From Haliotis cracherodii (lineage: Eukaryota), in the NCBI RefSeq assembly GCF_022045235.1, contig NW_027266341.1:14694001-14758000 (forward strand): a stretch of 64,000 nucleotides of DNA, written 5' to 3'. The notes below the pieces were generated by a model. It did no database searches. It was not told the origin of the DNA and saw nothing but the letters and a program-made list of their open reading frames with translations. A program made the position numbers and the translations under genes. This document shows positions 1,299 through 55,300 of the stretch, one piece after another; position 1 is the stretch's first letter; each line of letters opens with the position of its first letter.

Positions 1299-4200
1299 AT
1301 TTCATCTTCAGGTTTTAATAGTCCTCTTGCAGCCAAGCCCATGTGACTGTTAGGAATCTTAGCAATTATTTTCTTCTTACATGTCTCAAAGTAAGACATC
1401 TTGCCCACAATGAAGCCCAAGATACAGGCACCTACATCAACAGAAACACAGATAATCAACATTACAATGTGCAGAGTTGGATCCCTTAGGCGAGCAAGGA
1501 TCCTATATCTGTGAGGGTGAATCCTGTTATTTGTTTTCACAAGACAGCCACCTACGTCAACATAACACAGTTCGACATTACACTTCTGTTTGTTTCTTCA
1601 TTTCCTCGGAACACATTGTGCAGTTATGTCCCTTAGGTGTGCAAGGATTCTATAATCATGCATTTGATTCCTAGATTAGTTCTTATAATGATCTTTGGTT
1701 TGTCACCACTATACCAGTGCTCGTGGGTTTCTAGCGAAATAGAAAACGTCTGAATCACTTGGGGCTTTCCTCCCACACGAAGCTGACATGCTCTAATATG
1801 ACTGAAACACTGTTCATAGCACTTCACTTGGCAGTCTGCGATATTAGCAACTAGCCTCAAGTCCAAGTTCAGTAAAACATAAATGTAGCTGATTGACAGT
1901 GTACAAAATTGCCAAACATTCCAGTCAGACAACTGGACTGGCAAAGTTACCAGACCAGATAAAATGTTGCCAGACCAGAATTTCTAGACTAACGAAAAAA
2001 AGCAGGAAAAAGGTAAGGACAAGAATAGTTCTTAGAAAATAACAATTAAGTGCTGAATTGTTATCTTGGTAACTTTAACTCGACCATTGGGGGTGCAACT
2101 TTTAAAACGACCGTCAGCAAAACAGGCCGTCTTGGACTATTAGGCAGGAAAATGCATATATAAACACAAAAGTATACTTCTGGCTTCTGTCAGTCTGTTG
2201 ACACTCACTCTTCATTCAGCAGTCTGATGTAAACTACTTGTCTGCAATTCGGGCCAATTTCTTTCAGTCAAGTAAGCATAGCCAATAAAAATCTGTACAT
2301 TAAAAACTGTAAATGGCAACAAGTAACAATTTGGGGCAGATAGAACCAAACATTTTGGCACCAACTGTTTTGGTTCACAACTTTTAGAAAATATTGTCTT
2401 CACCAATGATATCTTGAACATACATGCTGATGCTATTATCACAAAGTACATAAATTACGAGCATGTAGTGTTCGGTTGTTTTCTACTCACCAATATGCTT
2501 GGGATAAACTCCATATGATGGAGAACGTCCTAAAACACCTGAAACAAAGGACAAGAAGAGTGAGTGAGTGAGTATTTTTTTACGATGCTATTAGCAATTT
2601 TCGAGCAATATCACGGCAGGGGGACACCAGAGAAGATGCTTCACACATTTAACCCATGTGGGGAATCGAACCCCGGTCTCCGGCGTGACGAGCCAACACT
2701 TTAACCACAAGGCTACCCCACCGCCCCTGGACGTGAAGAAGAATATATGGTGTTAATACACACACAACAAATGTGACACAACCCTAACTTGCCCACAACA
2801 GAAGATGTCCTATATACCACTATATGAAGTGACATTTCAGGGCACTTGCCTCCATGCTGCAAAAGGCGTAGATCTTACTGACCCAATACAGGAAGGTGTA
2901 AACTCAAATGTTTCTTTCAACACTTGCCATTTCAAAATATGAATATCAGTTCAATAATTTGATTAACTACTTTGCTTGATGTCAACATGATATCAAATAT
3001 TGACAGAGAGAGGCATCAAGTCAGAGTGCAAGATCTTAAAGGATATTGTAGAAAGTGTACAAACATTTGCTTGAAGAAAAAATCACAATGTCCATGCCCT
3101 CATTCACCTTGATTGATCTTCTTTTGTTCATAAACTCAAAATAATAACAAGATGATGCTAGAGTGAGTGAGTGAGTTGGGTTTAACGCCGCTTTTAACAG
3201 TATTCCAGTTATATTGTGGCATGTCAGCTTAATGTGGGAGGAAAGCCCGAAGTGATGCAGGTCTCAGACGTTTACCACTTCGGTGAAACCCACGAGCACG
3301 GGTATGGTGCTGACGAACCTAGAAACATAAATCGGGGCGAACCCACAATCATAGGTTTCTGGCATGCCCAAGGGACGTAACTCTGCACAGCAAATCGTGG
3401 CGCCTTAGACGACTGGGCCACCGGTGCCCGAGATGATGCTAGAATACCCATGAGTTATTCACGACCTCATTTCATTTGCTTCCTTAAACCAGACATGTGT
3501 GACTACTACAAAGCATTGTGGTCCATTTACAGTGATGAAGGTTGGTTGGTTGGTTTGTTGTTTAATGCCCCACTCAGAAATATTCCAGCTATATGACAGC
3601 AGTCTGTAAATAATCGAATCTGGACCAGATAATCCAGTGATTGATATCATGAGCATTGATCAACGCAGTTGTAATTGTATCAACCAAGTCAGCGAGCCTG
3701 ACCACCCAATCCTGTTAGTCGCCTTTAACGACAAGCATAGTCACCTTTTACGGCAGGCATGGGTTGTTGAAGACCTATTCTACCCCGGATCTTCATGGGT
3801 CCAGTGATGGTAGTTTCATTAAACTTACACAGTAATGTGCATGCACATGTGTGTGTCGCTGCTTGTACGGGTCCAGACTAATACTGGTTTGATAGTGCTA
3901 GCCCACTGAGATACCATGCCACAGTTTAACACGGATACCCCACTCAGAATCTGAGCTGACCAGTCCTTGTTTTATAAGTACCATCTTTTTAATGTCTTTT
4001 GGTATGATGCAGCCTGGAATCTAACGACAGACCTTCCTCTCTCTGGGCAGAAGCTAAATCTATTAGACCATGGAGGCATCCATCTATGAAGCATGCACAA
4101 GTATTGTTTTCATACATTTAGCATCTTGCCACCAAAGGGAGATAATCCATATTTATTTCTGATTGAAATTCTTGTAAAAAAAAGTGGATCCATAAAATAA

Positions 4201-11574: not shown

Positions 11575-13445
11575 GTGTGTGTGAGAGATAGTTATTTTAT
11601 TAACGTGTCACGTGTTAAAAAGAGAGATATATACATGTTCTTTGGCATATTAAAAAGTAACACCCAGCCATGAGGTTTATGAGACACAATATAACATTAT
11701 ACACATTATAAACTATAAAATACATTGACAATAAAATGCTATATGCCTAGCTAAATGATTGCTTACGTTTAAACATCTTTAAATGTGCACTGGCTAACAA
11801 AGGCTGAATTTCATTACATTTTAAAATATAAATAAAAGTGTCTTCAACGCTAATATTTTCAAATAACGGATACATTAAAACAATACATTCTCTAAGTAAA
11901 ATACTTTTAAGATCATCATATAAAGGACATAACATTAAAAAGTGAAATTCATCTTCGACAAACTTTTGATGAACAAATTTAAAACAGTGCGGTCAGATTC
12001 TATTTTCTAAAAGGGTTGGTGGAGTTGTTAAACGTCCTGTTTCGATAGCCAGGAGTAAAGATCCAGACCTAAAACTAGCTAAAATGCGACGGTGGTCCCT
12101 GTATTTAATACTTAAAACATAGGGAGCAACAACGTTACGATCATGAAATTGCCTGAAAGTTCTTAGTTTATTACCATTAACGTTACGTTTATCGTTCCAA
12201 AAGCTCACTTCTCCATCTCAGTTCATCTTTTTTTATGAAAACGTTTTTAATATGGGCAATTTTCTTCTGTCGGGACATTGGAGCAGTTAGAACATCATAG
12301 ATATTAAGGTTACAGGCGATTTTAACAACTTTAGTGTTCCATGAACTTTTATAAGACTTAGACATAGTAAACATTTTCTTAATCAAATCGTTACAAGTAC
12401 TATTGTTAATCTTGATGTACAGTACTAGTCTGATAACATTACATGAAATTTAACAAACGGGGAGGAGAGACCCATGTCTCCATTAGTGGCTATATTGGAG
12501 ATACGTTTACTAACACCAAGAAATAATTTACAGGCTCTATTATGGATTAGATTAACTTCTCTATAAACGTTCAATCTCAATATGCTAAAGCCATAAAACA
12601 TTACCGACTCAACAAGACTTTCATACAATTTCATAAAAACAGTTTTGTGGTTTTTCTATACTGAATTATAGACGTTAAAACCTATAAATAATCAATAAAA
12701 TCTCTTTTTGATCTAAAACCATTTTGCTCATCTGCTAGGATATTGTTCTTTTCAAGCCACTCAGTTAGTCTTGAATTGAGTACATCAGCATATACTTTAC
12801 AGGGAATAGATGTTACAGCGATACCTCTATATTCTAAAGGGTTTCTTAAATCCTTCACACCAGTCTTAGGAATAGGATGGATTATACCGCTGTTCCACAT
12901 AACTGGTACAGTTCCATTTTCAAAGCAGTATTTAATAATTCTGTACAACAAATCAACTGAACTTACATTTTTTAACACTTCAGCAGCAATATCATCTGCA
13001 CCTGCAGCTTTTCCACTCTTAAGTCTAAAAACAGCCTTTTCAACTTCCTGCACTGAAATAGGTTTATTTAAAATGTAAGTATCGAACATGGGAGACTGAT
13101 CTAATGTAGGGTTCACATTTAAAATACCATCACCAGGTGCTGTGTTAAGTAGTGACTGATATGCATTTTTCCATTTTGATAAAACAGAGTCACAATCATA
13201 TCGGATGTTTCCATCATCATCAGTGGCTTCAAAAGGAACTTGGCCATTTCTATCATCAGCCAGTCCGATTTTTCCAATATTTTTCCGAAAGTCTTTTCCA
13301 TTATTTTGATCAAATGACGCAGCCAGTTTATTTTGCTGATCAAGCGCGTAGTTGCACTTCATTTTACGGTTAGTGCTGTCAAATGTTTTTCTTTTATCTG
13401 TATATAACTTTTTTAGCTTTCTTTTTTAAAAGGGACCAGACGTTA
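11575..13445 (-). mobile_element. Decayed LINE (L2/Crack/Daphne-like) ORF2 fragment with 3' tail
   Basis: KSGKAAGADDIAAEVLK, GIIHPIPK, YRGIAV, EQNGFR, then KLRTF..PYV..FRSGSLLLAIETGR..VEDEFHF.LCPLY. The RT core (YADD region) is deleted near 12680. AATAAA plus (CA)n tail at ~11575-11600. Confidence 0.88.
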
Positions 13446-17564: not shown

Positions 17565-17721
17565 CTCATGACTAACCTATTCAATGACAATGAGCGATGA
17601 CTAAAATAACTCTCAGCGCGCGCACGATCTCTGAAGTCAAATGCTACCCGGATGTCACAACCAGGAAGTTTCCCAGCCATTGGTGGAATCCTTCTCTTGG
17701 GTGGTTCCACAGACTATATAA
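17565..17721 (+). promoter_or_regulatory. Proximal promoter of copy 1: AP-1-like, ETS, kB-like, inverted CCAAT, TATA
   Basis: TGACTAA twice (~17569, ~17598), CCGGATGT 17648-17655, CAGGAAGT overlapping GGAAGTTTCCC 17664-17674, ATTGG 17679-17683, TATATAA 17715-17721, ~100 nt upstream of the ATG. Confidence 0.6.
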
Positions 17722-17820: not shown

Positions 17821-20800
17821 ATGAATCTCAAAATGGTAAGTCAAATTTGTTTGGTTTTCATTTTGCAGAGTTGTATCAAAGCATTGTAAAATTCGCTTCG
17901 AAAGAAATATTTTCCAAGAATTTAGTCAACATTGTACAATTGTCATGTCGCATTGACTTAACACGTTTAGATGAAATTGTTGTGACAAATATGATTGATT
18001 AAAGTAAGAATTCGGCAAATGTAAAAAAGTTGCAAATATCCTATATTCCGATTTGTACTTTTTGTAGCTAAAACGTAAAGAAAACGTTAAATCACTTAAT
18101 ATTCAAGAAATGTTTAATAAATAAATTACAGTAATTTAAACCCGAACGCGCCTAATGCTTGTCCAATGTTTAAATAAGTTTCTTAATACGGTAAATAATG
18201 GTTTCAGTACATATTCGAATTTGATTTGATTTCATTACCTATTTCCAGATTATCTACCTATTCAGTGCATGTGTACTGATCAGTGCTGTGGCTGGACAAT
18301 GCCCGGCTCCTGATGACAATGCATTGAATTTGGAGCCCAACACCACCCTAGCTGTCATACGGTCATACGCTTCTCTCAGGTGAGTTCATGATTGGAAAAA
18401 CTACAGCAATGATGACACCAGGTGTTCGCTTAACTTTGCGATCTAACATCGATTGACATAAGTTGTTTTAACAGTGTTACTTCAATATTTTGAAGAATAA
18501 AACAAATTCAAAATCGAAAATGAAACCTACATGAATTACTAAACTGCCTGACAAATGAAAGTATACACCCTTGTTTGATGGTGGATGACCATAAAACAAA
18601 CCCAGTAAATGGTTACTAGTATTCGATGGGGATGTATTTGATACGTGTGTCATAGTTGTGTTTTGGAACTTAAGTTTGCAATGTGTCAAGGACTATTTTC
18701 AGCTGAGTAACGTTTTGATAACGTTTGTAATTACTTTTAGATCCGTGTATACTTCTTTTGCCCCACAGTTTATTTATATAAAGTCATCCTGTATTTCCAG
18801 ACGACGTATATCAGCGTCTGCAACAGATCGACAGAGCCAGATGTTTCTCAGTGGTCTTGAGAACAGCAAATGCGCGGAGCCCAGGACAGTCCCTGAAGAC
18901 AATCCCGACATCATATCAAGGTATACAAATAATACATATAAATGAAGAATAAATATAATTATCATGAATGAATTACATTTATGATCCTGACGAATGAATC
19001 ATTACCTATCATTAATTGTTCATGGTTTATTGTTTGGTTCTAGTTCCTTTTCTCGATTCCTGCAGGTCGAATTCCAAGCCGCTGTTTGAGGTCAGTCTCG
19101 CCGTCAGTGAATGTGAGCCATGTCCCCCAAGGGTTAATTTCCTCGGCCGCTTCTACGGCAGCTGCTACGTCATCAAACCCAGCGAGCAGCAAGTCAGATA
19201 CGTCTCCTGCGGGTGAGTTTACACGGGATCGTCAAACTACAGCCAGTTGACATAAATATTTGTCACTTCCAATATGGCGGCTGTTTGTTTGCAAAATGTC
19301 GCTTCTTTGAAGAATCGAATTTTGAAAGAAATTTTTAATGGCCTAACTTGGTCAGATTGCTCTTGATACGAATGACTTCATAAGAATCCTAGCTGGAATT
19401 GTGGAATACAAATAGCGAATCCTAGTATACTCCAGACCAATATTGATCCAAATGTCATTGATAGCCGTGAAAAATTCAGCGCGGTTACCGATAGTTTCAG
19501 CCCGTGTTTAAAGACATCTTTCGATTTGTGTTTGATTATTTGTTGTTTAACGCCGCACTCAGCAATATGCCAGCTACATGACGGCGGTCTTTTGATTTTT
19601 AACTAAATGTTCTCAATGATATTGAGATCCGGAGACTGTGCCGGCCATTCCGTCACATTGACATTGTTGTTTTCACAGCGCGTGCCCGCTGAACGGGAGC
19701 ACTGTCATCCTGGAATGTGTACGCTTTGTTGGTAAAAACTGTTGATTTCATTGTCCTTCCTCCAAATGAAAACTCGGTCGTTGGAACCAACCACAACCTG
19801 GCACCACCATCTTCTTCGTCATCTGCGATAGCTCATACCTAACAGTTTCTCTCTGGACAGTGACTGCCTCCGTGGTCTAGTGGAAGAGCGTCCGCCTGGT
19901 GAGCGGAAGGTCCGGGGTTCGATCCCTGACCGCGTCAAACCAAAAGACGTTAAAATATGGTACTTGTTGTTACCCTGTCTGGCGCTCGGCATTAAGGGGC
20001 TAAAACAAGGACTGGTCAGCTCGTAGTCAGTATACTGTGTCTGAGTGGGGTATTCATGTTAAACTGCGCCATGGTATCTCAGTGATCTAGCACTATAAAT
20101 CGGCATCAGCCCGGACTAGTACAAGCAGCCACACAAACACACACACGTACATGCACGTTGCTATATAAGAAGGGGCGGTCGGGTAGCCTAGTGGTTAAAG
20201 CGTTCGCTCGTCACGCCGAAGACCCGGGTTCGATGCCCGACATGGGTACAATGTGTGAAGCCCATTTCTGGTGCCCCCCGCCGTGATATTGCTGGAATAT
20301 TGCTAATAGCGGCGTAAAACCATACTCACTCCACTCGCTATATATCTTGGACGCGACGTTAAATCCAATTTCACCTCACCTCTCTGGACAGTCTTTTGAC
20401 AAAAATGTACTTCATTACCCTCATTAATTATATTAGTCATTTCTTGCAAAGTTGTTTTTCTGTTTCCTTTCACTACCTGTGAAATTCCGTCTCATCTATA
20501 ATGCTAAAAGATTTCTGCCGCCAAATTCGTTCCACATTTTCTACCGAACCGGCCATAATTTCTAGTAATACTGTTGATGGTTGTCCTAGGTATGCCGAAT
20601 ATTATTATTGCCAACACTTAGGGGTTTCCAGTGTGTTCTGATACTTTTTATATTTTCTCGCGGCCCACTGCACAATTCAGGTGATATGCAACCTATAAAT
20701 CCCGCGGCTGACTGTGAAATAACTGAGACAAGCAGACGACATAAGATGGCTGTCACGTGACTCGCACGTTCCGTACAGAGCACACGTGATTCAGCTGGGA

Positions 20801-21274
20801 TGTCCTCGCGCTTCGTGTTTCGTCACATGTTTTGCAGAGCGACGAATATCTAAGTCCAGTAACTGTAGCTCAAATATTTACAGATGGGTAAAGTGATTTG
20901 TTTGAAAAGAGAGTTTGCTCTAGAGAAAATATAATTTGACATGACGTATTACTGAAATATAAATCGTCCGCTGGACATGCTGGATGTCCTGAAGAAAGAG
21001 TGAAAAAAGTTAAATTGTGCGGCTCCTCCTTTCAAAGAAAATACATGCGTGTTTCCAGGCAATTATCTGTAAGTTTGAATTAAGCTGATGCTTTTCTCTC
21101 CACAGCAAAACATGCAAGCAGCCGTGCATGTGTTCCCGGAGCTACTGCCAGAGAACTCACTACACCAAGGTCTGGTTCCTATCTTACTGTACAAGAGGGA
21201 TCGGCGGTTTCCAGAGCGGTTTGAACTTTCGGTTCCTGTGGCTCCCACAAGACTGTGCGTGCAGAAACTATTAA
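17821..21274 (+). CDS. Secreted Spaetzle-like cystine-knot prepro-protein, copy 1 (193 aa)
   Basis: Exons 17821-17835, 18249-18379, 18801-18920, 19066-19212, 21106-21274 (582 nt, GT-AG, phases 0/2/2/2). MNLKMIIYLFSACVLISAVAG|QCPAPDDNALNLEPNTTLAVIRSYASLRRRISASATDRQSQMFLSGLENSKCAEPRTVPEDNPDIISR|SNSKPLFEVSLAVSECEPCPPRVNFLGRFYGSCYVIKPSEQQVRYVSCGKTCKQPCMCSRSYCQRTHYTKVWFLSYCTRGIGGFQSGLNFRFLWLPQDCACRNY*. Signal peptide plus the Q.V...C / C.Q.HY / F..P..CxC spacing of Spaetzle-type knots. Gene structure is high confidence; the family call is moderate. Confidence 0.85.
19240..20865 (-). mobile_element. Decayed Tc1/mariner transposon filling intron 4 of copy 1, with nested SINEs
   Basis: TA-flanked imperfect TIRs (CAGCCAGTTGACATAAATATTTGTCACT versus rc CAGTTACTGGACTTAGATATTCGTCGCT). 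Minus-strand transposase remnants: GIPRTTINSI (HTH), QKTVQR, DD.APVQRAR, WPAQSPDLNIIENI, AINDIW..I...Y...LYSTIPARI. Confidence 0.85.
19862..20380 (+). mobile_element. SINE family C (tRNA head, MetaSINE-like core) carrying a nested SINE A
   Basis: A box TGGTCTAGTGG, B box GGTTCGATCCC, core ...TCAGTGAGCTAGCACTATAAA...CTAGTACAA; TSD CTCTCTGGACAGT. Also at 29452-29970 and 38850-39369; a 5'-truncated copy at 10022-10286 has TSD TCTTGCTGGA. The MetaSINE assignment is from memory of the core. Confidence 0.85.
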
Positions 21275-27063: not shown

Positions 27064-29249
27064 ATGAATCTCAAAATGGTAAGTCAAATTTGTTTGGTTT
27101 TCATTTTGCATTGAGTTGTATTATAGCATCATAGCATTGTAAAAATTCGCTTCGAAAGAAATATTTTTCAAGAATTTAGTCAACATTGTACAATTGTCAT
27201 GTCGCATTGACTTGACACGTTTAGATGAAATAGTTGTGACACATATGATTGATTAAAGTAGGAATTTGGCAAATGTAAAAGGTTGCAAATATCCTAAATT
27301 GGTATTTTTACTTTTTTTAGACACAACCTTGAGAAAACGTTAAATCAGTTAATATTCCAGAAATGTGTGATAAAATTACAGTAATTTAAACCTGAACGCG
27401 TCTAATGCATGTCTAATATTTCAATAAGTTTCTTAAAACGTTAAATAATGGTTTCGGTACATATTCGAATTTGATTTTATTTCATTACCTATTTTCAGAT
27501 TATCTACCTATTCAGTGCATGTGTACTGATCAGTGCTGTGGCTGGACAATGCCCGGCTCCTGATGACAATGCATTGAATTTGGAGCCCAACACCACCCTA
27601 GCTGTCATACGGTCATACGCCTCTCTCAGGTGAGTTCATGATTGGAAATACTACAGCAATGATGACACCAGGTTTTCGCTTAACTCTGCGCGTCCTACAT
27701 CATAACGTATCCACGAGTGACATAAGTTCTTGTAACAGTGTTATTTTAATACTTTGAAGAATTAACAAAGTAAAGCATAGAAAATGAAGTCTTTGAAAGG
27801 CATTTTGAAGTGATACACATAAGGTGAGTTCATGATTGGAAATACTATAGCAATGACACCAGGTGTTCGCTTAACTTTGCGATCTAACATCGATTGACAT
27901 AAGTTGTTTTAACAGTGTTACTTCAATATTTTGAAGAATAAAACAAATTCAAAATCGAAAATGAAACCTACATGAATTACTAAACTGCCTGACAAATGAA
28001 AGTATACACCTTTGTTTGATGGTGGCTGACCATAAAACAAACCCAATAAATGGTTACTAGTATTCGATGGTGATGTATTTGATACGTGTGTCATAGTTGT
28101 GTTTTGAAACTTAAGTTTGCAATGTGTCAGGGACTATTTTCAGCTGAGTAACGTTTTGATAATGTTTGTAATTACTTTTAGATCCGTGTATACTTCTTTT
28201 GCCCCACAGTTTATTTATATAAAGTCATCCTGTATTTCCAGACGACGTATATCAGCGTCTGCAACAGATCGACAGAGCCAGATGTTTCTCAGTGGTCTTG
28301 AGAACAGCAAATGCGCGGAGCCCAGGACAGTCCCTGAAGACAATCCCGACATCATATCAAGGTATACAAATAATACATATAAATGAAGAATAAATATAAT
28401 TATCATGAATGAATTACATTTATGATGCTGACAAATGAATCATTACCTATCATTAATTGTTCATGATTTATTGTTTGGTTCTAGTCCCTTTTCTCGATTC
28501 CTGCAGGTCGAATTCCAAGCCGCTGTTTGAGGTCAGTCTCGCCGCCAGTGCATGTGAGCCATGTCCCCCAAAGGTTAATTTCCTCGGTCGCTTCTACGGC
28601 AGCTGCTACGTCATCAAACCCAGCGAGCAGCAAGTCAGATACGTCTCCTGCGGGTGAGTTTACACTGGATCGTTAAACTACAGCCAGCTGACATACATAT
28701 TTGTCACTTCCAATATGGCGGCTGTTTGTTTGCAAAATGTCGCTTCTTTGAAGAATCGAATTTTTGAAAGATTGCTCTTGATACGAATGACTTCATAAGA
28801 ATCCTAGCTGGAATTGTGGAATACAAATAGCGAATACTAGTATACTCCAGACCAATATTGATCCAAATGTCATTGATAGCCGTGAAAAATTCAGCGCGGT
28901 TACCGATAGTTTCAGCCCGTGTTTAAAGACATCTTTCGATTTGTGTTTGATTATTTGTTGTTTAACGCCGCACTCAGCAATATGCCAGCTACATGACGGC
29001 GGTCTTTTGATTTTAAACTAAATGTTCTTAATGATATTGAGATCCGGAGACTGTGCCGGCCATTCCGTCACATTGACATTATTGTTTTCACAGCGCGTGC
29101 CCGCTGAACGGGAGCATTGTCATCCTTGAATGTGTACGCTTTGTTGGTTAAAACAGGCCAGAGATTATTTTCAAGAATGTCAATACATTTCAGAGGATAT
29201 TATATTGCCTCAGTGTTTCGACACCTTCATAACAAACTCCCCCCCCCCC

Positions 29250-29280
<31 letters not shown>

Positions 29281-30866
29281 ACACAGCATAACAGATACTA
29301 CTTCCTTTTCGGGCACACGAGATGGTGACTGTTGGTTTCATTGTCCTTCCTCCAAATGAAAACTCGGTCGTTGGAACCAACCACAACCTGGCACCACCAT
29401 ATTCTTCATCATCTGCGATAGCTCATACCTAACAGTTTCTCTCTGGACAGTGACCGCCTCCGTGGTCTAGTGGTAGAGCGTCCGCCCGGAGAGCGGAAGG
29501 TTAGGGGTTCGATCCCCGACCGCGTCATACCAAAAGACGTTAAAAGATGGTACTTGTTGTTACCCTGTCTGGCGCTCGGCATTAAGGGGCTAAAACAAGG
29601 ACTGGTCAGCTCGGAGTCAGTATACTGTGTCTGAGTGGGGTATTCATGTTAAACTGCGGCATGGTATCTCAGTGAGCTAGCACTATAAATCGGCATCAGT
29701 CTGGACTAGTACAAGCAGCCACACAAACACACACACGTACATGCACGTCGCTATATAAGAAGGGGCGGTCGGGTAGCCTAGTGGTTAAAGCCTTCGCTCG
29801 TCACGCCGAAGACCCGGGTTCGATTCCCGACATGGGTACAATGTGTGAGGCCCATTTCTGGTGTCTCCCGCCGTGATATTGCTGGAATATTGCTAATAGC
29901 GGCGTAAAAGCATACTCACTCCACTCGCTATATATCTTGGACGCGACGTTAAACCCAATTTCACCTCACCTCTCTGGACAGTCTTTTGACAAAAATGTAC
30001 TTCATTTCCCTCATTAATTATATTAGTCATTCCTTGCAAAGTTGTTTTTCTGTTTCCTTTCACTACCTGTGACATTCCGTCTCATCTCTAATGCTAAAAG
30101 ATTTCCTCCGCCAAATTCGTTCCAAATTTTCTACCGAACCGGCCATAATTTCTAGTAATACTGTTGATGGTTGTCCTAGGTATGCCGAATATTATTATTG
30201 CCAACACTTAGGGGTTTCCAGTGTGTTTTGATACTTTTACAATATTTTCTCGCGGCCCACTGCACAATTCAAGTGATATGGAACCTATAAATCCCGCGGC
30301 TGACGGTGCAATAACTGAGACAAGCAGACGACATAAGATGGCTGTCACGTGACTCGCACGTTCCGTACAGAGCACACGTGATTCAGCTGGGATGTCCTCG
30401 CGCTTCGTGTTTCGTCACATGTTTTGCAAAGCGACGAATATCTAAGTCCAGTAACTATAGCTCAAATATTTACAGATGGGTAAAGTGATTTGTTTGAAAA
30501 TAGAGTTTGCTCTAGGGAAAATATAAGTTGACATGACGTATTACTGAAATATGAATCGTCCGCTGGACATGCTGGATGTCCTGAAGAAAGAGTGAAAAAA
30601 GTTAAATTGTGCGGCTCCTCCTTTCAAAGAAAATACATGCGTGTTTCCAGGCAATTATCTGTAAGTTTGATTTAAACTGATGCTTTTCTCTCCACAGCAA
30701 AACATGCAAGCAGCCGTGCATGTGTTCCCGGAGCTACTGCCAGAGAACTCACTACACCAAGGTCTGGTTCCTATCTTACTGTACAAGAAGGATCGGCGGT
30801 TTCCAGAGCGGTTTGAACTTCCGTTTCCTGTGGCTCCCACAAGACTGTGCGTGCAGAAACTATTAA
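27064..30866 (+). CDS. Spaetzle-like cystine-knot prepro-protein, copy 2 (193 aa)
   Basis: Exons 27064-27078, 27499-27629, 28242-28361, 28507-28653, 30698-30866. Same exon lengths and splice sites as copy 1, open frame. Differences include AASAC (vs AVSEC), PPKV and TRRIG. Confidence 0.85.
28681..30457 (-). mobile_element. Same Tc1 relic in intron 4 of copy 2
   Basis: Same insertion site and TIRs; retains ILENNLWPV..FKDDNAPVQRAR..WPAQSPDLNII. Confidence 0.85.
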
Positions 30867-36664: not shown

Positions 36665-39600
36665 ATGAATCTCAAAATGGTAAGTCAAATTTGTTTGGTT
36701 TTCATTTTGCATTGAGTTGTATTATAGCATCATAGCATTGTAAAAATTCGCTTCGAAAGAAATATTTTTCAAGAATTTAGTCAACATTGTACAATTGTCA
36801 TGTCGCATTGACTTGGCACGTTTAGATGAAATTGTTGTGACACATATGATTGATTAAAGTAGGAATTTGGCAAATGTAAAAGGTTGCAAATATCCTAAAT
36901 TGGTATTTTTACTTTTTTTAGACCTTGAGAAAACGTTAAATCAGTTAATATTCCAGAAATGTGTGATAAAATTACATTAATTTAAACCTGAACGCGTCTA
37001 ATGCATGTCTAATATTTCAATAAGTTTCTTAATACGGTAAATAATGATTTCGGTACATATTCGAATTTGATTTGATTTCATTACCTATTTTCAGATTGTC
37101 TACCTATTCAGTGCATGTGTACTGATCGGTGCTGTGGCTGGACAATGCCCGGCTCCTGATGACAATGCATTGACTTTGGAGCCCAACACCACCCTAGCTG
37201 TCATACGGTCATACGCTTCTCTCAGGTGAGTTCATGATTGGAAAAACTACAGCAATGATGACACCTGGTGTTCGCTTAACTTTGCGATCTAACATCGATT
37301 GACATAAGTTGTTTTAACAGTGTTACTGCAATATTTTGAAGAATAAAACAAATTCAAAATCGAAAATGAAACCTACATGAATTACTAAACTGCCTGACAA
37401 ATGAAAGTATACACCTTTGTTTGATGGTGGCTGACCATAAAACAAACCCAATAAATGGTTACTAGTATTCGATGGTGATGTATTTGATACGTGTGTCATA
37501 GTTGTGTTTGGGAACTTAAGTTTGCAATGTGTCAGGGACTATTTTCAGCTGAGTAACGTTTTGATAACGTTTGTAATTACTTTTAGATCCGTGTATACTT
37601 CTTTTGCCCCACAGTTTATTTATATAAAGTCATCCTGTATTTCCAGACGACGTATATCAGCGTCTGCAACAGATCGACAGAGCCAGATGTTTCTCAGTGG
37701 TCTTGAGAACAGCAAATGCGCGGAGCCCAGGACAGTCCCTGAAGACAATCCCGACATCATATCAAGGTATACAAATAATACATATAAATGAAGAATAAAT
37801 ATAATTATCATGAATGAATTACATTTATGACCCTGACGAATGAATCATTACCTATCATTAATTGTTCATGATTTATTGTTTGGTTCGAGTCCCTTTTCTC
37901 GATTCCTGCAGGTCGAATTCCAAGCCGCTGTTTGAGGTCAGTCTCGCCGCCAGTGCATGTGAGCCATGTCCCCCAAAGGTTAATTTCCTCGGCCGCTTCT
38001 ACGGCAGCTGCTACGTCATCAAACCCAGCGAGCAGCAAGTCAGATACGTCTCCTGCGGGTGAGTTTACACGGGATCGTCAAACTACAGCCAGCTGACATA
38101 AATATTTGTTACTTCCAATATGGCGGCTGTTTGTTTGCAAAATATCGCTTCTTTGAAGAATCAAATTTTGAAAGAAATTTTTAATGGCCTAACTTGGTCA
38201 GATTGCTCTTGATACGAATGACTTCATAAGAATCCTAGCTGGAATTGCGGAATACAAATAGCGAATACTAGTATACTCCAGACCAATATTGATCCAAATG
38301 TCATTGATAGCCGTGAAAAATTCAGCGCGGTTACCGATAGTTTAAGCCCGTGTTTAAAGACATCTTTCGATTTGTGTTTGATTATTTGTTGTTTAACGCC
38401 GCACTCAGCAATATGCCAGCTACATGACGGCGGTCTTTTGATTTTTAACTAAATGTTCTCAATGATATTGAGATCCGGAGACTGTGCCGGCCATTCCGTC
38501 ACATTGAAATTATTGTTTTCACAGCGCGTGCCCGCTGAACGGGAGCATTGTCATCCTTGAATGTGTACGCTTTGTTGGTTAAAACAGGCCAGAGATTATT
38601 TTCAAGAATGTCAATACATTTCAGAGGAGATTATATTGCCTCAGTGTTTCGACACCTTCATAACAAACTCACCCACACAGCACAGCATAACAGATAACCT
38701 TCCTTTTCGGGCACACGAGATGGTGACTGTTGATTTCATTGTCCTTCCTCCAAATGAAAACTCGGTCGTTGGAACCAACCACAACCTGGCACCACCATCT
38801 TCTTCGTCATCTGCGATAGCTCTTACCTAACAGTTTCTCTCTGGACAGTGACCGCCTCCGTGGTCTAGTGGTAGAGCGTCCGCCCGGAGAGCGGAAGGTC
38901 CGGGGTTTGATCCCCGACCGCGTCATACCAAAAGACGTTAAAAGATGGTACTTGTTGTTACCCTGTCTGGCGCTCGGCATTAAGGGGCTAAAACAAGGAC
39001 TGGTCAGCTCGGAGTCAGTATACTGTGTCTGAGTGGGGTATTCATGTTAAACTGCGGCATGGTATCTCAGTGAGCTAGCACTATAAATCGGCATCAGTCC
39101 GGACTAGTACAAGCAGCCACACAAACACACACACGTACATGCACGTCGCTATATAAGAAGGGGCAGTCGGGTAGCCTAGTGGTTAAAGCCTTCGCTCGTC
39201 ACGCCGAAGACCCGGGTTCGATTCCCGACATGGGTACAATGTGTGAAGCCCATTTCTGGTGTCCCCCGCCGTGATATTGCTGGAATATTGCTAATAGCGG
39301 CGTAAAACCATACTCACTCAACTCGCTATATATCTTGGACGCGACGTTAAACCCAATTTCACCTCACCTCTCTGGACAGTCTTTTGACAAAAATGTACTT
39401 CATTTCCCTCATTAATTATATTAGTCATTCCTTGCAAAGTTGTTTTTCTGTTTCCTTTCACTACCTGTGACATTCCGTCTCATCGCTAATGCTAAAAGAT
39501 TTCCTCCGCCAAATTCGTTCCAAATTTTCTATCGAACCGGCCATAATTTCTAGTAATACTGTTGATGGTTGTCCTAGGTATGCCGAATATTATTATTGCC

Positions 39601-40269
39601 AACACTTAGGGGTTTCCAGTGTGTTTTGATACTTTTACAATATTTTCTCGCTGCCCACTGCACAATTCAGGTGATATGCAAAAAAAACTATAAATCCCTC
39701 GGCTGACTGTGCAATAACTGAGACAAGCAGACGACATAAGATGGCTGTCACGTGACTCGCACGTTCCGTACAGAGCACACGTGATTCAGCTGGGATGTCC
39801 TCGCGCCTCGTGTTTCGTCACCCGTTTTGCAAAGCAACGAATATTTAAGTCCAGTAACTGTAGCTCAAATATTTGCAGATGGGTAAGGTGATTTGTTTGA
39901 AAAGAGAGTTTGCTCTAGAGAAAATATAATTTGACATGACGTATTGCTGAAATATAAATCGTCCGCTGGACATGCTGGATGTCCTGAAGAAAGAGTGAAA
40001 AATGTTAAATTGTGCGGCTCCTCCTTTCAAAGAAAATACATTCGTGTTTCCAGGCAATTATCTGTAAGTTTGATTTAAGCTGATGCTTTTCTCTCCACAG
40101 CAAAACATGCAAGCAGCCGTGTATGTGTTCCCGGAGCTACTGCCAGAGAACTCACTACACCAAGGTCTGGTTCCTATCTTACTGTACAAGAAGGATCGGC
40201 GGTTTCCAGAGCGGTTTGAACTTTCGGTTCCTGTGGCTCCCACAAGACTGTGCGTGCAGAAACTATTAA
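36665..40269 (+). CDS. Spaetzle-like cystine-knot prepro-protein, copy 3 (193 aa)
   Basis: Exons 36665-36679, 37095-37225, 37647-37766, 37912-38058, 40101-40269. Intact; signal peptide variant IVYLFSACVLIGA, and ALTLEP. Confidence 0.85.
38086..39860 (-). mobile_element. Same Tc1 relic in intron 4 of copy 3
   Basis: Same site, TIRs and transposase remnants. Confidence 0.85.
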
Positions 40270-46159: not shown

Positions 46160-49124
46160 ATGAATCTCAAAATGGTAAGTCAAATTTGTTTGGTTTTCAT
46201 TTCGCATTGAGTTGTATTATAGCATTATATCATTGTAAAAATTCGCTTCGAAAGAAATATTTTTCAAGAATTTAGTCAACATTGTACAATTGTCATGTCG
46301 CATTGACTTGACACGTTTAGATGAAATTGTTGTGACAAATATGATTGATTAAAGTAGGAATTTGGCAAATGTAAAAGTTGCAAATATCCTAAATTGGTAT
46401 TTTTACTTTTTTTAGACACAACCTTGAGAAAACGTTAAATCAGTTAATATTCCAGAAATGTGTGATAAAATTACATTAATTTAAACCTGAACGCGTCTAA
46501 TGCATGTCTAATATTTCAATAAGTTTCTTAATACGGTAAATAATGGTTTCGGTACATATTCGAATTTGATTTGATTTCATTACCTATTTCCAGATTGTCT
46601 ACCTATTAAGTGCATGTGTACTGATCAGTGCTGTGGCTGGACAATGCCCGGCTCCTGATGACAACGCATTGAATTTGGAGCCCAACACCACCCTAGCTGT
46701 CATACGGTCATACGCTTCTCTCAGGTGAGTTCATGATTGGAAATACTACAGCAATGATGACACCAGGTTTTCGCTTAACTTTGCGCGTCCTACATCATAA
46801 CGTATCCACGAGTGACATAAGTTCTTGTAACAGTGTCATTTTAATACTTTGAAGAATTAACAAAATAAAGCATAGAAAATGAAGTCTTTGAAAGGCATTT
46901 TGAAGTGATACACATAAGGTGAGTTCATGATTGGAAATACTATAGCAATGACACCTGGTGTTCGCTTAACTTTGCGATCTAACATCGATCGACATAAGTT
47001 GTTTTAACAGTGTTACTTCAATATTTTGAAGAATAAAACAAATTCAAAATCGAAAATGAAACCTACATGAATTACTAAACTGCCTGACAAATGAAAGTAT
47101 ACACCCTTGTTTGATGGTGGCTGACCATAAAACAAACCCAATAAATGGTTACTAGTATTCGATGGGGATGTATTTGATACGTGTGTCATAGTTGTGTTTT
47201 GGAACTTAAGTTTGCAATGTGTCAAGGACTATTTTCAGCTGAGTAACGTTTTGATAACGTTTGTAATTACTTTTAGATCCGTGTATACTTCTTTTGCCCC
47301 ACAGTTTATTTATATAAAGTCATCCTGTATTTCCAGACGACGTATATCAGCGTCTGCAACAGATCGACAGAGCCAGATGTTTCTCAGTGGTCTTGAGAAC
47401 AGCAAATGCGCGGAGCCCAGGACAGTCCCTGAAGACAATCCCGACATCATATCAAGGTATACAAATAATACATATAAATGAAGAATAAATATAATTATCA
47501 TGAATGAATTACATTTATGATCCTGACGAATGAATCATTACCTATCATTAATTGTTCATGATTTATTGTTTGGTTCTACTTCCTTTTCTCGATTCCTGCA
47601 GGTCGAATTCCAAGCCGCTGTTTGAGGTCAGTCTCGCCGCCAGTGCATGTGAGCCATGTCCCCCAAGGGTTAATTTCCTCGGCCGCTTCTACGGCAGCTG
47701 CTACGTCATCAAACCCAGCGAGCAGCAAGTCAGATACGTCTCCTGCGGGTGAGTTTACACGGGATCGTCAAACTACAGCCAGCTGACATAAATATTTGTC
47801 ACTTTCAATATGGCGGCCGTTTGTTTACAAAATTTCGCTTCTTTGAAGAATCGAATTTTGAAAGATATTTTTAATGACCCACATTAAAACGTGGTCCGAT
47901 TCCTCTTCATACGAATCACTTCAAGAATCCTAGCTGGAATACAATTCAATTGGCGAATATACTCCAAACCATTATTGGTCCAAATGTCATTGATAGTCGT
48001 GAAAACTTCAGCGCGGTAACCGATAGTTTCAGCCCGTTTGAAGACCTCTTTCGATTTTTGTTTGTTTTATTGACGTTATTGACGTTTAACGCCGCACTCA
48101 GGTAACATGCCGGCTATTTGACGGCGGTCTTTTGATTTTTAACCAAATGTTCTCAATGATATTGAGATCCGGAGACTGTGCCGGCCATTCCGTCACATTG
48201 ACATTATTACTTTCGATGTACGCTTTCACAGCGCGTGCCTGCTGAATGGGAGCACGTACGGATGATGTAAAAACAGGTCCGAGATTATTGTCAATATATT
48301 TCAGAGGTGTTTCGACACCTTCATAACATACTCAAGGCCTGTAAAAGTTCCGTCTTATCTCTAATCTCGTTACAAATTTCCCGCCGAACACTCTCGCCCA
48401 TGTTTTCTAATTATACTGTTGATGGTTGTCCTAGGTATTTTTCTTGCCAAGTCAGAGTGATTTCCAATATGTTTTGATTCTAATACAATATTTCTCACAG
48501 CCCAATTCATCTGATTTTCGACCTGTAATTCCCGCGACTGACCGTGCAATAACTTGGGCAAGCAGACGACATCAGCTGGCTGTCACGTGACTTGCCATTC
48601 TTTATATAGCACACAAGATTCAGCTGGGATGTCTTTCCGCTTCAGTAAAGGAATGTTTCGTCACACGTTCTGCTTAGTGATTTGCAAAGAGACGAATATT
48701 TAAGTCCAGTAACTGTAGCTCAAATATTTACAGATGGGTAAAGTGATTTGTTTGAAAAGAGAATTTGCTCTAGGGAAAATATAACTTGACATGACGTATT
48801 ACTGAAATATGAATCGTTCGCTGGACATGCTGGATGTCCTGAAGAAAGAGTGAAAAAAGTTAAATTGTGCGGCTCCTCCTTTCAAAGAAAATACATGCGT
48901 GTTTCCAGGCAATTATCTGTAAGTTTGAATTAAGCTGATACTTTTCTCTCCACAGCAAAACATGCAAGCAGCCGTGTATGTGTTCCCGGAGCTACTGCCA
49001 GAGAACTCACTACACCAAGGTCTGGTTCCTATCTTACTGTACAAGAAGGATCGGCGGTTTCCAGAGCGGTTTGAACTTCCGTTTCCTGTGGCTCCCACAA
49101 GACTGTGCGTGCAGAAACTATTAA
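46160..49124 (+). CDS. Spaetzle-like cystine-knot prepro-protein, copy 4 (193 aa)
   Basis: Exons 46160-46174, 46594-46724, 47337-47456, 47602-47748, 48956-49124. Intact; shorter, diverged intron 4; AATAAA at ~49325. Confidence 0.85.
47776..48715 (-). mobile_element. Same Tc1 relic in intron 4 of copy 4: internally deleted, diverged, lacking the nested SINE-C/SINE-A pair
   Basis: Same TIRs and site. ORF 48370-48561 contains the HTH remnant DLARKIPRTTINSIIRKHGR; WPAQSPDLNIIENIW is at ~48190-48140. Confidence 0.85.
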
Positions 49125-52358: not shown

Positions 52359-55300
52359 TTAAGCAGGAACAGTACTGTTGCAGTAGGGGTCAAAAACCGC
52401 AGTAGAGATCGAACTCAGGGTACCACCCACGTCAAATATGTGATCCTCGGAAGACGCGATCTTCGCGATACCAGCCTTATCCACGCTCGACGTCACTGTG
52501 ACGACGAACACCTCCGCCTTTGCGTGCAGCGCCTGTATGCTCACGACAGCATCATCTTTGTATTTGCCGTCGGTGATGATTAGAACCACGTTCCTCGCAT
52601 CTGGACGATCACCCCTAGACTCAGTGTAGATGTTCGCGTTGGCCAGTTTGATGGCGGGATCTAGGTATGTCCCCCCACCCGTACCCCACTGAGAACTTAG
52701 AGCTGAGAGAACATTTGTTTTGTTGTCATATGTATTCAAATTGAAGCCAACGCGCGCCTTTGAGGAGAAAGTAATAAAAGCGACGTTGCTTTCCTCCTTG
52801 CTGATACTAGAGCCATTGACAAAATTCATGACGAATTCATGTGCCTTATCATTATCATGTTTCTCAACGGAAGAAGAGACATCCTCGATGATGAGAAGAT
52901 CAACAGGGTCTGGGTTGCATTCTGCAACAAAGAATATACGTATTTGTGTTCATTTTGTTCTGCGTTCGGATTAATGATTATCCAGGTATTACAGCTCTAT
53001 TGTATGATGATAAATACTCTGGACCCATTCAAAACCAAAGGACTCGTGAAGATCCGGGGTAGAATAGGTCTCCAGCTACCCATGCTTGCCGTAAAAGGCG
53101 ACAATGCTTGTCGTAAGAGACGACTAACGGGATCGGGTGGTCAGGCTCGCTGACATGGTTTGATGCATGTCATCGTATATTCCCGCTATTTGACGGCGGT
53201 CTGTAAATAATCGAGCCTGAACCAGACAATCCAGTGATTGACATCATGAGCATCGATATACGCAATATGGATACGACGACATGCATCAACCAAGCCAGCG
53301 AGCCTGACCACCCGATCCCGTTAGTTGCCTCCTACGACAAGTATGGGTTGCTGAAGATCATTTATAACCCGGAATCTTCACAGGACTGACGTTATCAAGT
53401 AAGACAGTAAGAGAGTGAATGAATGCGTTTAGAGCCGTTTCAATATTATTTCAGTGAGATCAGGAAGCGTCACTTTCACTGAAAGAAAACCTTAAAGTGA
53501 TGCAGGTCAGGCCATCGTTGACCACAAAAGTGATCCTCGTTATAATTAATGAAACTTGTATAAATATTACCGAAACAGTATGCTGACAACATCGACCGTT
53601 TGAAAATTCCATACACCTCCCTGTCTTCACATTTTGTTACCATGGTGACGAAGGGACCAGCACATGCTGTATATGGCGTAGCAATGCACATGGCGACCTG
53701 GTCACCTTTCCTCCCTGCAAATCATAAAACATAATTTGAGAAAAACACACATTGCTCAAGAAGGTATGAACCGATTAATTCAATAGCTATAGTTGAACCC
53801 GGAGACGATTTCGTCTTCAGGAACCCATGCTTGCCGGAAAAGGCGACTGTGCTTGTCGTTAGAGGCGACTAAAGGGATCGGATGGTCAGGCTCGCTGATT
53901 TGGTTGATGGATGTCACCGTATCCCAATTGCGTGGATAGAGGCTCATGATGTCAATCACTGGATTGTCTGGTCCAGACTCGATTATTTACACACTGCCAT
54001 CAAATAGCTGAAATATTGCTGAGTGTGGTGTTAAACAACAAACAAACTATAGTTGACTTGCAAAGTCCATATAAATGTGATTGTAAACACGCCTACAGTG
54101 TATATGTCTTTCAGCCATTCCTTCACAAAATCTTTACATGTTCGATCAACACGTTTGGTTTTGCGTATTACACATTAGTTGCATCAGCTTTATAAATGTG
54201 GAAACATTTAGTAGTATAAAAATAAACATGTCTTTGTTCCTTTAACAAGAAATATTAATGATGCAACTAAAAGACACACATAGCCTCCGGTCACCCTCAA
54301 CAGGTGCTCACTTTTAATCAATTAATAATTAATGTCCTTTAGTGTGTCATAAGATTGGTTGGTTGGTTTGTTGTTTCACGCCGCACTCAGCAATATTCCA
54401 GCTATATGGACCCGTGAAAAGGCGACTAACGACTTGGTTAATGCATGTCATCGACCCCAATGGTGTGGCTCGATGCTGATGATGTCAATCACTGGATTGT
54501 CTGGTCCAGACTCGACTATTTACAGACCGCTGTCATATATAGCTGGAATATTGCTGAGTGCGGCGTAAAAAACCAACCAACCAACCAAAATCCAGCTATA
54601 TGACGGCGGTAAATGTAAATAATCGAGTCTCTCGACAGCGATCCACGCAATTGGGATCAATGACATGCATCAACCAAGTCAGCGAGCCTGACCAGCCGAT
54701 CCCGTGTCATAAGAGACTTATGTTGGACATCTTGTGTTTTTATATAAGTTTGCTTTTTTCCGGCATAAATTTACATTTAAAAAAGGTCTAACTTAATTTC
54801 TTACCCCAATCTTTATTGTACGAATTTATTTTTACACAAAATTACCCGGCAACAGATTACTTTTTACAGACTTTTGCAGAAATGACTGATGGTTAAAAAG
54901 ACATAGTCAAATATAGCAAGTTTTTTTCAGTTTTCAATAACATAAAAAAACAAGGCATGTTGTTTGTTTGTTTGTTGTTTAACGCCACACTCAGCAATTT
55001 TACAGCTATATAAATCGAGTGTGGGCCAGATAATCGAGTGATTGACATCATGCGCATCGATTCACGCAAGAAAGAAATGTTAGGAATGTCCTACCCTGTC
55101 GTTAGCATCCGCCACTTCCACAATTTGCATAAGAAGGTACATGTAGGTGTTTGTTGCCCGACACCGTACAGCAGTACTCCTGCGCTGCGACGGCGGCCAA
55201 AACAAACCAGCCAACCAAGTGGTGGACCAGAAGATCATGTGACACGATATCACTTTACATAAACTTGAAATGGTTTATGAGATAAGACGCAAAAGCACGG

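What the first reader, a model, noticed from the sequence alone, without database searches (positions are those of the whole stretch)
18801..19212. Candidate protease activation site releasing a 104-aa mature domain (Spz C-106-like)
Seen in sequence: DIISR|SNSK falls exactly on the exon 3/4 junction (R89), leaving 104 C-terminal residues. A tribasic RRR lies at the exon 2/3 junction, and an N-glycosylation sequon NTT is in the pro-region. Established: Spz is activated by serine-protease cleavage after Arg (VSSR|VGG), giving C-106. Inference: the protein is a zymogen-like ligand activated by an extracellular protease cascade. The odd Cys count suggests a covalent dimer formed through a different Cys than in Spz.
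Basis: inference. Interest (0 to 1): 0.7.

Follow-up and report, generated by a model that had tools for sequence, protein, structure and literature searches.

The report
Abalone cystine-knot precursor lacking furin site
This is a spliced, four-copy abalone gene for a likely secreted protein with a predicted cystine-knot fold; several relatives carry a furin-type cutting motif just before the knot while this one has only a lone arginine there, so it may be cut outside the cell like insect Spaetzle, but no cut, protease or receptor is shown.

Summary
A five-exon, 193-aa gene (RefSeq XP_071088556.1, Haliotis cracherodii; four tandem copies) has R89 split by intron 3, 104 residues after it with 11 Cys, RRR at 49-51 and NTT at 36. 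Spliced contigs show the three junctions tested. The C-terminus folds as a cystine knot (weak, tied matches to NGF, sclerostin, coagulogen; Spz weaker; no Pfam Spaetzle hit). R89 lies in a disordered, length-variable linker (74-104) where 3 of 8 lineages carry R-X-K/R-R (shuffle P=4e-5), so the linker is likely the family's processing zone. R89 is kept in two other abalones and fails the convertase rule. But the exon-junction and '104 vs 106' coincidences carry little weight, two abalone paralogs have Ser or Gly there, and no protease cascade is shown. The Spz dimer Cys position is Asp187; C141 is the best substitute. Extracellular cutting at R89 is the leading but minority reading (0.35).

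The parts
17649..17721 (+). Proximal promoter: two ETS-like sites (-172, -158), one kappaB-like site (-157) and a TATA box (-106), relative to the ATG
   Evidence: Consensus scan. The 190 bp before the ATG are 96-97% identical between copies against 78-86% further upstream. Consensus matches only; the copies are not independent.
17821..17835 (+). Coding exon 1 (residues 1-5), phase-0 intron follows
   Evidence: protein identical to XP_071088556.1
18249..18379 (+). Exon 2: rest of the likely signal peptide (to about G21, judged by eye), C23, NTT sequon (18339-18347), first two bases of R49
   Evidence: junction shown by loose ends
18801..18920 (+). Exon 3: RRR (49-51), predicted pro helices, invariant C73 (18871-18873), first half of the linker, first two bases of R89
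18874..19111 (+). Flexible linker 74-104 (spans intron 3) with the lone R89 (codon 18919-18920 + 19066)
   Evidence: pLDDT below 50 over 71-104; linker 14-33 aa in homologs with furin motifs in some
19066..19212 (+). Exon 4: end of linker, C105, C108 (predicted knot Cys I), C122, C137
21106..21274 (+). Exon 5 coding part: C141, C145, C147, C152, C166, D187, C188, C190, stop
27064..30866 (+). Tandem copy 2 (= P0012), intact, R89 kept
36665..40269 (+). Tandem copy 3 (= P0013), intact, R89 kept
46160..49124 (+). Tandem copy 4 (= P0001), intact, R89 kept

Best explanation
The gene encodes a likely secreted precursor with a two-cysteine pro-part, a predicted flexible linker and a predicted 11-cysteine cystine knot; its linker lacks the furin motif that several relatives carry, so it is likely secreted uncut and would be nicked at R89 by a trypsin-like protease, freeing a knot that would dimerise, possibly through C141. 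Shown: gene model, splicing, cysteine pattern, motif distribution. Predicted: fold and linker disorder. Inferred: linker processing in the family, loss of the furin site in this lineage, a C23-C73 bond, the cut at R89, the dimer, and any role as a cytokine-like ligand.
For: Knot: AlphaFold model confident over about 105-190; the leading VIA rows are all cystine knots (NGF 1sg1_B Z 5.0, rmsd 3.0, 78 aligned); Atlas neighbours are Spaetzle/NGF/IL17/Noggin-type clusters. Linker: pLDDT below 50, 14-33 aa long, R-X-K/R-R in 3 of 8 lineages against 0.08 expected (P=4e-5) and RXXR in 4 of 8 (P=0.002). The codon split by intron 3 is Arg in 3 of 5 abalone genes: P1 of RNTR in P0018 (coded CG|G, so not forced by a donor AG) and P4 of RSKR in the P0004-type gene. 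R89 is kept in all 4 copies, H. rufescens and H. asinina; R77 is not, and K93 precedes Pro. R89 has no basic residue at spacer 0, 2, 4 or 6 (rule from PMC8310232). The Cys count from C105 on is odd in every complete homolog tabulated (11, or 13 in P0008); P0004 lacks C141 and has an extra C-terminal Cys. Precedent: Spz1 is cut by SPE while Spz2 and Spz5 are cut by furin-like proteases (PMC9427763).
Against: No cleavage data exist. The junction codon is Ser or Gly in 2 of 5 abalone genes; 4 of 8 lineages have no RXXR in the linker and 2 of 8 (P0007, P0020) have no Arg there, so a linker cut is not obligatory. The linker is 20 of 31 identical between H. cracherodii and H. asinina, like the pro-part (34 of 52), so keeping R89 is weak evidence. 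MAFFT does not put R89 in one column with the paralog Arg residues; the homology rests on intron position. The pro-part is predicted helical and is spanned in the alignments to coagulogen and noggin, unlike the unstructured Spz pro-domain. C73 is invariant and its partner is unknown. RR at 50-51 fits the convertase rule and would leave 12 Cys. PMC7773633 states that mollusc TLRs bind PAMPs directly.
Confidence: 0.35

Rival explanations
1. The protein acts uncut. The helical pro-part is an integral part of the fold, as in noggin or DAN-type knots, and R89 is a relic of a lost furin motif, favoured at the exon junction by the splice consensus.
For: No RXXR in the linker of 4 of 8 lineages, no Arg in 2. 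Pro-part conserved in pattern (C23, [LF]E at 33-34, Y45, C73) and predicted helical, pLDDT 76-84 over 31-50. The alignment to noggin spans model 20-192 (1m4u_A Z 4.4, rmsd 5.8, 116 aligned). H. asinina LTSRSKS matches the P0004 motif LTARSKR at 5 of 7 residues but lacks the P1 Arg.
Against: Furin motifs are enriched in the family linker, so the knot likely works after a cut in those members; an exposed Arg in a disordered linker is a ready target.
Confidence: 0.3
2. A convertase cuts at RR(R) 49-51 during secretion. The 142-aa product keeps C73, has 12 Cys and needs no covalent dimer; C23 is the odd cysteine, left on the N-terminal piece.
For: R50 and R51 fit (K/R)-Xn-(K/R); the dibasic pair survives in H. 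asinina (RR); parity becomes even.
Against: Junction 2/3 is Arg in only 1 of 5 abalone genes; no dibasic pair in the pro-part of P0003, P0005 or P0019; the site lies in a predicted helix, 39-55; Ile at P1' is disfavoured by convertases (recalled).
Confidence: 0.2
3. Coagulogen-like: the chain is nicked at R89 (and perhaps RRR) but nothing is released, because C23 or C73 is bonded to a knot cysteine such as C141; the nick uncovers a surface for self-assembly or binding.
For: Coagulogen is the top-tier match with the longest alignment (1aoc_A Z 4.6, rmsd 4.4, 114 aligned, model 26-193 on chain 4-175). C73 is invariant (9 of 9 rows). The knot is cationic (+6 to +12) and rich in aromatic residues, and the pro-part is acidic in two paralogs. 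Coagulogen does not need to dimerise (PMC2586362); its disulfide-tethered A chain is recalled.
Against: Z is under 5 and tied with NGF and sclerostin; the second model (P0007, mean pLDDT 55) gave no coagulogen row among the 50 shown; C23 and C73 lie in low-confidence parts of the model.
Confidence: 0.15

Closest known systems
Drosophila/Aedes Spaetzle (Spz1, C-106; PF16077)
   Same: Secreted prepro cystine-knot layout; single Arg upstream of the knot; structural register 106-193 on 3e07_A 8-104 (Z 2.6, rmsd 6.3, 67 aligned).
   Different: No Pfam hit; Asp187 at the interchain Cys position; 11 knot Cys; short pro-part with two conserved Cys, predicted helical; R89 is 19 residues before knot Cys I; no protease or Toll binding shown.
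Spz2/DNT1, Spz5/DNT2 and vertebrate neurotrophins (NGF)
   Same: Best fold match (Z 4.7-5.0, tied); furin-type sites before the knot in P0004, P0006, P0008.
   Different: This gene has no furin motif in the linker; extra cysteines; about 20% identity; no Pfam NGF hit.
Horseshoe crab coagulogen
   Same: Cystine knot with an N-terminal helical part; the alignment spans pro-part and knot; two basic sites could be cut.
   Different: 15% identity, Z 4.6; the tethering disulfides are not shown here; not seen with the second model.
Noggin, sclerostin and DAN-family knots
   Same: Z 4.0-4.7; exon 4 gives a sub-threshold Sclerostin hit (E 0.026); cationic knot.
   Different: No hit above a Pfam cut-off; the family carries convertase motifs in its linker.

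Membership tests
Spaetzle (PF16077) | Match to the Pfam Spaetzle profile | tested here: not met
   0 families at E<=10 for P0001 and P0002 and for 8 of 8 members of A1. Atlas neighbour clusters carry PF16077 in only 12-25% of members.
Spaetzle (PF16077) | Interchain Cys just before knot Cys V (position recalled as Cys98; a central interchain bond is stated in PMC9427763) | tested here: not met
   The end register 193 to 104 of 3e07_A puts residue 187 on 98; residue 187 is Asp or Glu in 8 of 8 complete rows.
Spaetzle (PF16077) | Natively unstructured pro-domain | tested here: inconclusive
   Both models place helices in the pro-part; prediction only, shallow alignments of 12 and 11 rows.
Spaetzle (PF16077) | Cut after Arg by a clip-domain protease (SPE/Easter) | tested here: inconclusive
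   PF12032 search of G000 found 0 matches, but its controls also found none. Cleavage itself cannot be tested here.
Spaetzle (PF16077) | Mature dimer binds and activates Toll | not testable with these tools
   No receptor data.
Cystine-knot growth-factor superfamily | Two beta-fingers on a six-Cys knot with a C-terminal CxC | tested here: met
   Predicted, not solved: strands 110-137 and 150-192; the first 31 rows are cystine knots, best Z 4.7-5.0; C108, C137, C145, C147, C152, C188, C190 invariant. No Foldseek match at E<=0.001.
Furin/proprotein-convertase substrate at R89 | (K/R)-Xn-(K/R), n = 0, 2, 4 or 6, ending at the cut | tested here: not met
   No basic residue at those spacings before R89 (rule in PMC8310232).
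Coagulogen | N-terminal piece held to the knot by disulfides after cleavage (recalled) | not testable with these tools
   Model coordinates are not returned, so Cys pairings could not be read; fold match Z 4.4-4.6.

The most novel reading that the evidence does not exclude
A gastropod cystine-knot family processed by furin has, in one abalone lineage, lost the furin site, expanded in tandem under an ETS/kappaB-type promoter and come under the control of an extracellular protease at R89: an independent reinvention of a Spaetzle-type zymogen cytokine in a phylum whose TLRs are thought to bind microbial patterns directly.
Probability: 0.1. Interest if true: 0.75.

Novelty: new member of a known kind. 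Interest (0 to 1): 0.3.

Why it matters
Whether molluscs have a protease-activated, Spaetzle-like cytokine is open: PMC7773633 (passages) cites one clam homolog of unclear role. This family offers a natural comparison of furin-site, lone-Arg and no-Arg linkers on one scaffold, which makes the question testable with a few constructs. As it stands it is an unannotated member of a common class of secreted precursors, and the cut at R89 is a hypothesis.

Tried and rejected
Dimer prediction of residues 22-193 x2: no answer, score 0.17 against a mark of 0.32, alignment not used; it counts neither way. PDB sequence searches: 2 chance hits for P0001, 0 for A1. Foldseek: 0 matches at E<=0.001. Second model (P0007) was low-confidence and its fold search uninformative, best Z 3.3. 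G000 searches for PF16077 and PF12032: 0 matches, controls silent too, so no evidence of absence. Search for longer or fused relatives: 0 of 7992 candidates. No holder is on record as RNA; the first read-laying was swamped by repeats. P0009 is a partial match to residues 5-68 only and was left out of alignments; P0020/P0021 lack the C-terminal half and were left out of the tree and of whole-knot Cys counts. The tree has long branches and does not place P0004, so the direction of furin-site loss is inferred. ETS/kappaB sites were not found together in 1.6 kb upstream of 4 of 4 paralogs, though exon 1 was located in only one. Paper searches for a description of this family listed 2, 5, 8 and 5 papers, none about it by title; a search on Arg at phase-2 introns listed none, so the splice-consensus argument rests and recalled knowledge. 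Earlier-findings look-ups were empty. Rejected as evidence: the exon-junction position, the 104 vs 106 length, the NTT sequon.

Full report
Gene model. The finding covers exons 3 and 4 of a five-exon plus-strand gene (17821-17835, 18249-18379, 18801-18920, 19066-19212, 21106-21274) for a 193-aa protein. It is identical to P0014, RefSeq XP_071088556.1, 'uncharacterized protein' of Haliotis cracherodii. Three further intact copies follow at 9.2-9.6 kb spacing and differ by 7-9 coding bases; exon 3 is identical in all four. Contigs from 4 of 4 runs laid (4 studies, RNA by the tool's guess, 95-99% alike) skip intron 3, 3 of them with at least 31 nt on each side, and their loose ends read exon 2 and exon 5.

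Observation. R89 is AG|G across intron 3, 104 residues with 11 Cys follow, RRR is 49-51 with R49 split by intron 2, and NTT starts at N36. All are as stated. Three of these carry little weight. An Arg within five residues of the C-106 position has probability 0.63. Exons ending in AG give Arg or Ser at phase-2 junctions: of 14 family junctions 5 end in AG, 3 Arg and 2 Ser (the AG|G splice preference is recalled). NTT and the third Arg of RRR are absent in H. asinina.

Family. The representative search found 8 proteins at E<=0.001: abalone paralogs, three Gigantopelta aegis proteins and one fragment; a profile search added two unnamed partial ones. G000 holds five more loci with matches, on C78 and C7. 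No Pfam family matches. The layout is a signal peptide (by eye), C23, a pro-part, an invariant C73, a linker of 14-33 aa and a domain of 11 Cys (13 in P0008).

Fold. AlphaFold on 12 rows gives mean pLDDT 64, helices at 39-55 and 59-70, disorder at 71-104 and a confident beta domain from about 105. Matches are weak but uniform: NGF Z 5.0, sclerostin 4.7, coagulogen 4.6, noggin 4.4, Spz 2.6; Foldseek has none at E<=0.001. The registers put C108 on knot Cys I and D187 on the Spz residue 98, recalled as the interchain Cys; 187 is Asp or Glu in 8 of 8 complete rows. So R89 lies before the knot, and a covalent dimer, if any, uses another Cys. C141 is the best candidate: P0004 lacks it and has an extra C-terminal Cys, keeping 11.

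The cut. The linker holds R-X-K/R-R in 3 of 8 lineages (P0004, P0006, P0008; 0.08 expected, P=4e-5) and RXXR in 4 of 8 (P=0.002; the lineages are related, so these P values are approximate). It is therefore likely the family's processing zone, by convertases. Anchored on intron 3, the split codon is Arg in 3 of 5 abalone genes (P1 of RNTR in P0018, coded CG|G; P4 of RSKR in the P0004-type gene; R89 here), Ser in one and Gly in one. MAFFT does not align these Arg residues in one column. In this gene neither motif is complete, and R89 fails the convertase rule (PMC8310232 passages). R89 is kept in H. rufescens and H. asinina, R77 is lost in H. asinina and K93 precedes Pro, so R89 is the likeliest trypsin-type site; but the linker is no less conserved overall (20 of 31) than the pro-part (34 of 52), which weakens this. 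Four of 8 lineages have no RXXR and two have no Arg in the linker.

Mechanism. Most likely (0.35) the protein is secreted uncut and nicked at R89 outside the cell, with C23-C73 bonded in the pro-part and the knot dimerising through C141. Insects show both modes: Spz1 is cut by SPE and stays non-covalently bound to its pro-domain, Spz2 and Spz5 are cut by furin-like proteases (PMC9427763 passages). Rivals are activity without a cut (0.3), a convertase cut at RR 50-51 leaving 12 Cys (0.2), and a coagulogen-like nick without release (0.15; PMC2586362 passages, for coagulogen as a monomer). An immune role has only weak support: ETS-like and kappaB-like sites just upstream of the TATA box (about 0.02-0.03 expected per 200 bp each, motifs chosen after seeing the sequence) in a segment 96-97% identical between copies, and the tandem expansion. 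Against it, PMC7773633 (passages) says mollusc TLRs bind PAMPs directly; PMC5484132 (one passage) says invertebrate TLRs seem to need Spatzle. PMC10179214 (passages) added nothing. Other papers were seen only as search listings; no supplements were read.

Verdict. A real, spliced, unannotated member of the cystine-knot precursor class, not a Pfam Spaetzle. It may work like Spz; the cut, the protease, the dimer and the receptor are untested. Interest 0.3.

Noticed in passing
window 16436-49524: Four-copy tandem array with 9.2-9.6 kb units. Coding differences (7-9 nt per pair) are shared in a mosaic between copies, and copy 1 alone has V102, E104 and G169, which suggests gene conversion or unequal crossing-over.
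   Followed up: partly
window 17649-17721 and matching sites in copies 2-4: ETS-like, kappaB-like and TATA motifs in a highly conserved 190-bp segment; copies 2-4 have a third ETS-like site at -203.
   Followed up: partly
L021:4646-4861 (G000:C78 near 14776660, minus strand): An isolated exon-5-like paralog piece with the C145-equivalent changed to Tyr; no clear upstream exons found in L021 or L026. Likely a pseudogene fragment.
   Followed up: partly
L022/L023 (C78 15.01-15.04 Mb) and L024/L025 (C7 17.48-17.50 Mb): Two pairs of convergently oriented paralogs with the same phase-2 intron positions. L022 has a short duplicate of exon 2 at 3855-3977, and RefSeq model P0018 carries a doubtful 130-aa N-terminal extension.
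   Followed up: partly
P0003, P0017, P0018: This paralog has a third pro-part Cys (C30), which makes its total even (14).
   Followed up: no
window 52359-52949 (minus): Open frame with a von Willebrand A domain (PF00092, E 1e-29), next to the array.
   Followed up: partly
window 56224-57369 (plus) and 12682-13425 (minus): Tc1/mariner transposase remnant (PF13358, PF01498) and a frame resembling a LINE reverse-transcriptase N-part by eye (no Pfam hit).
   Followed up: partly
window 19539-19590, 19862-20121, 20171-20331: High-copy interspersed repeats in intron 4, very abundant in the laid contigs.
   Followed up: no
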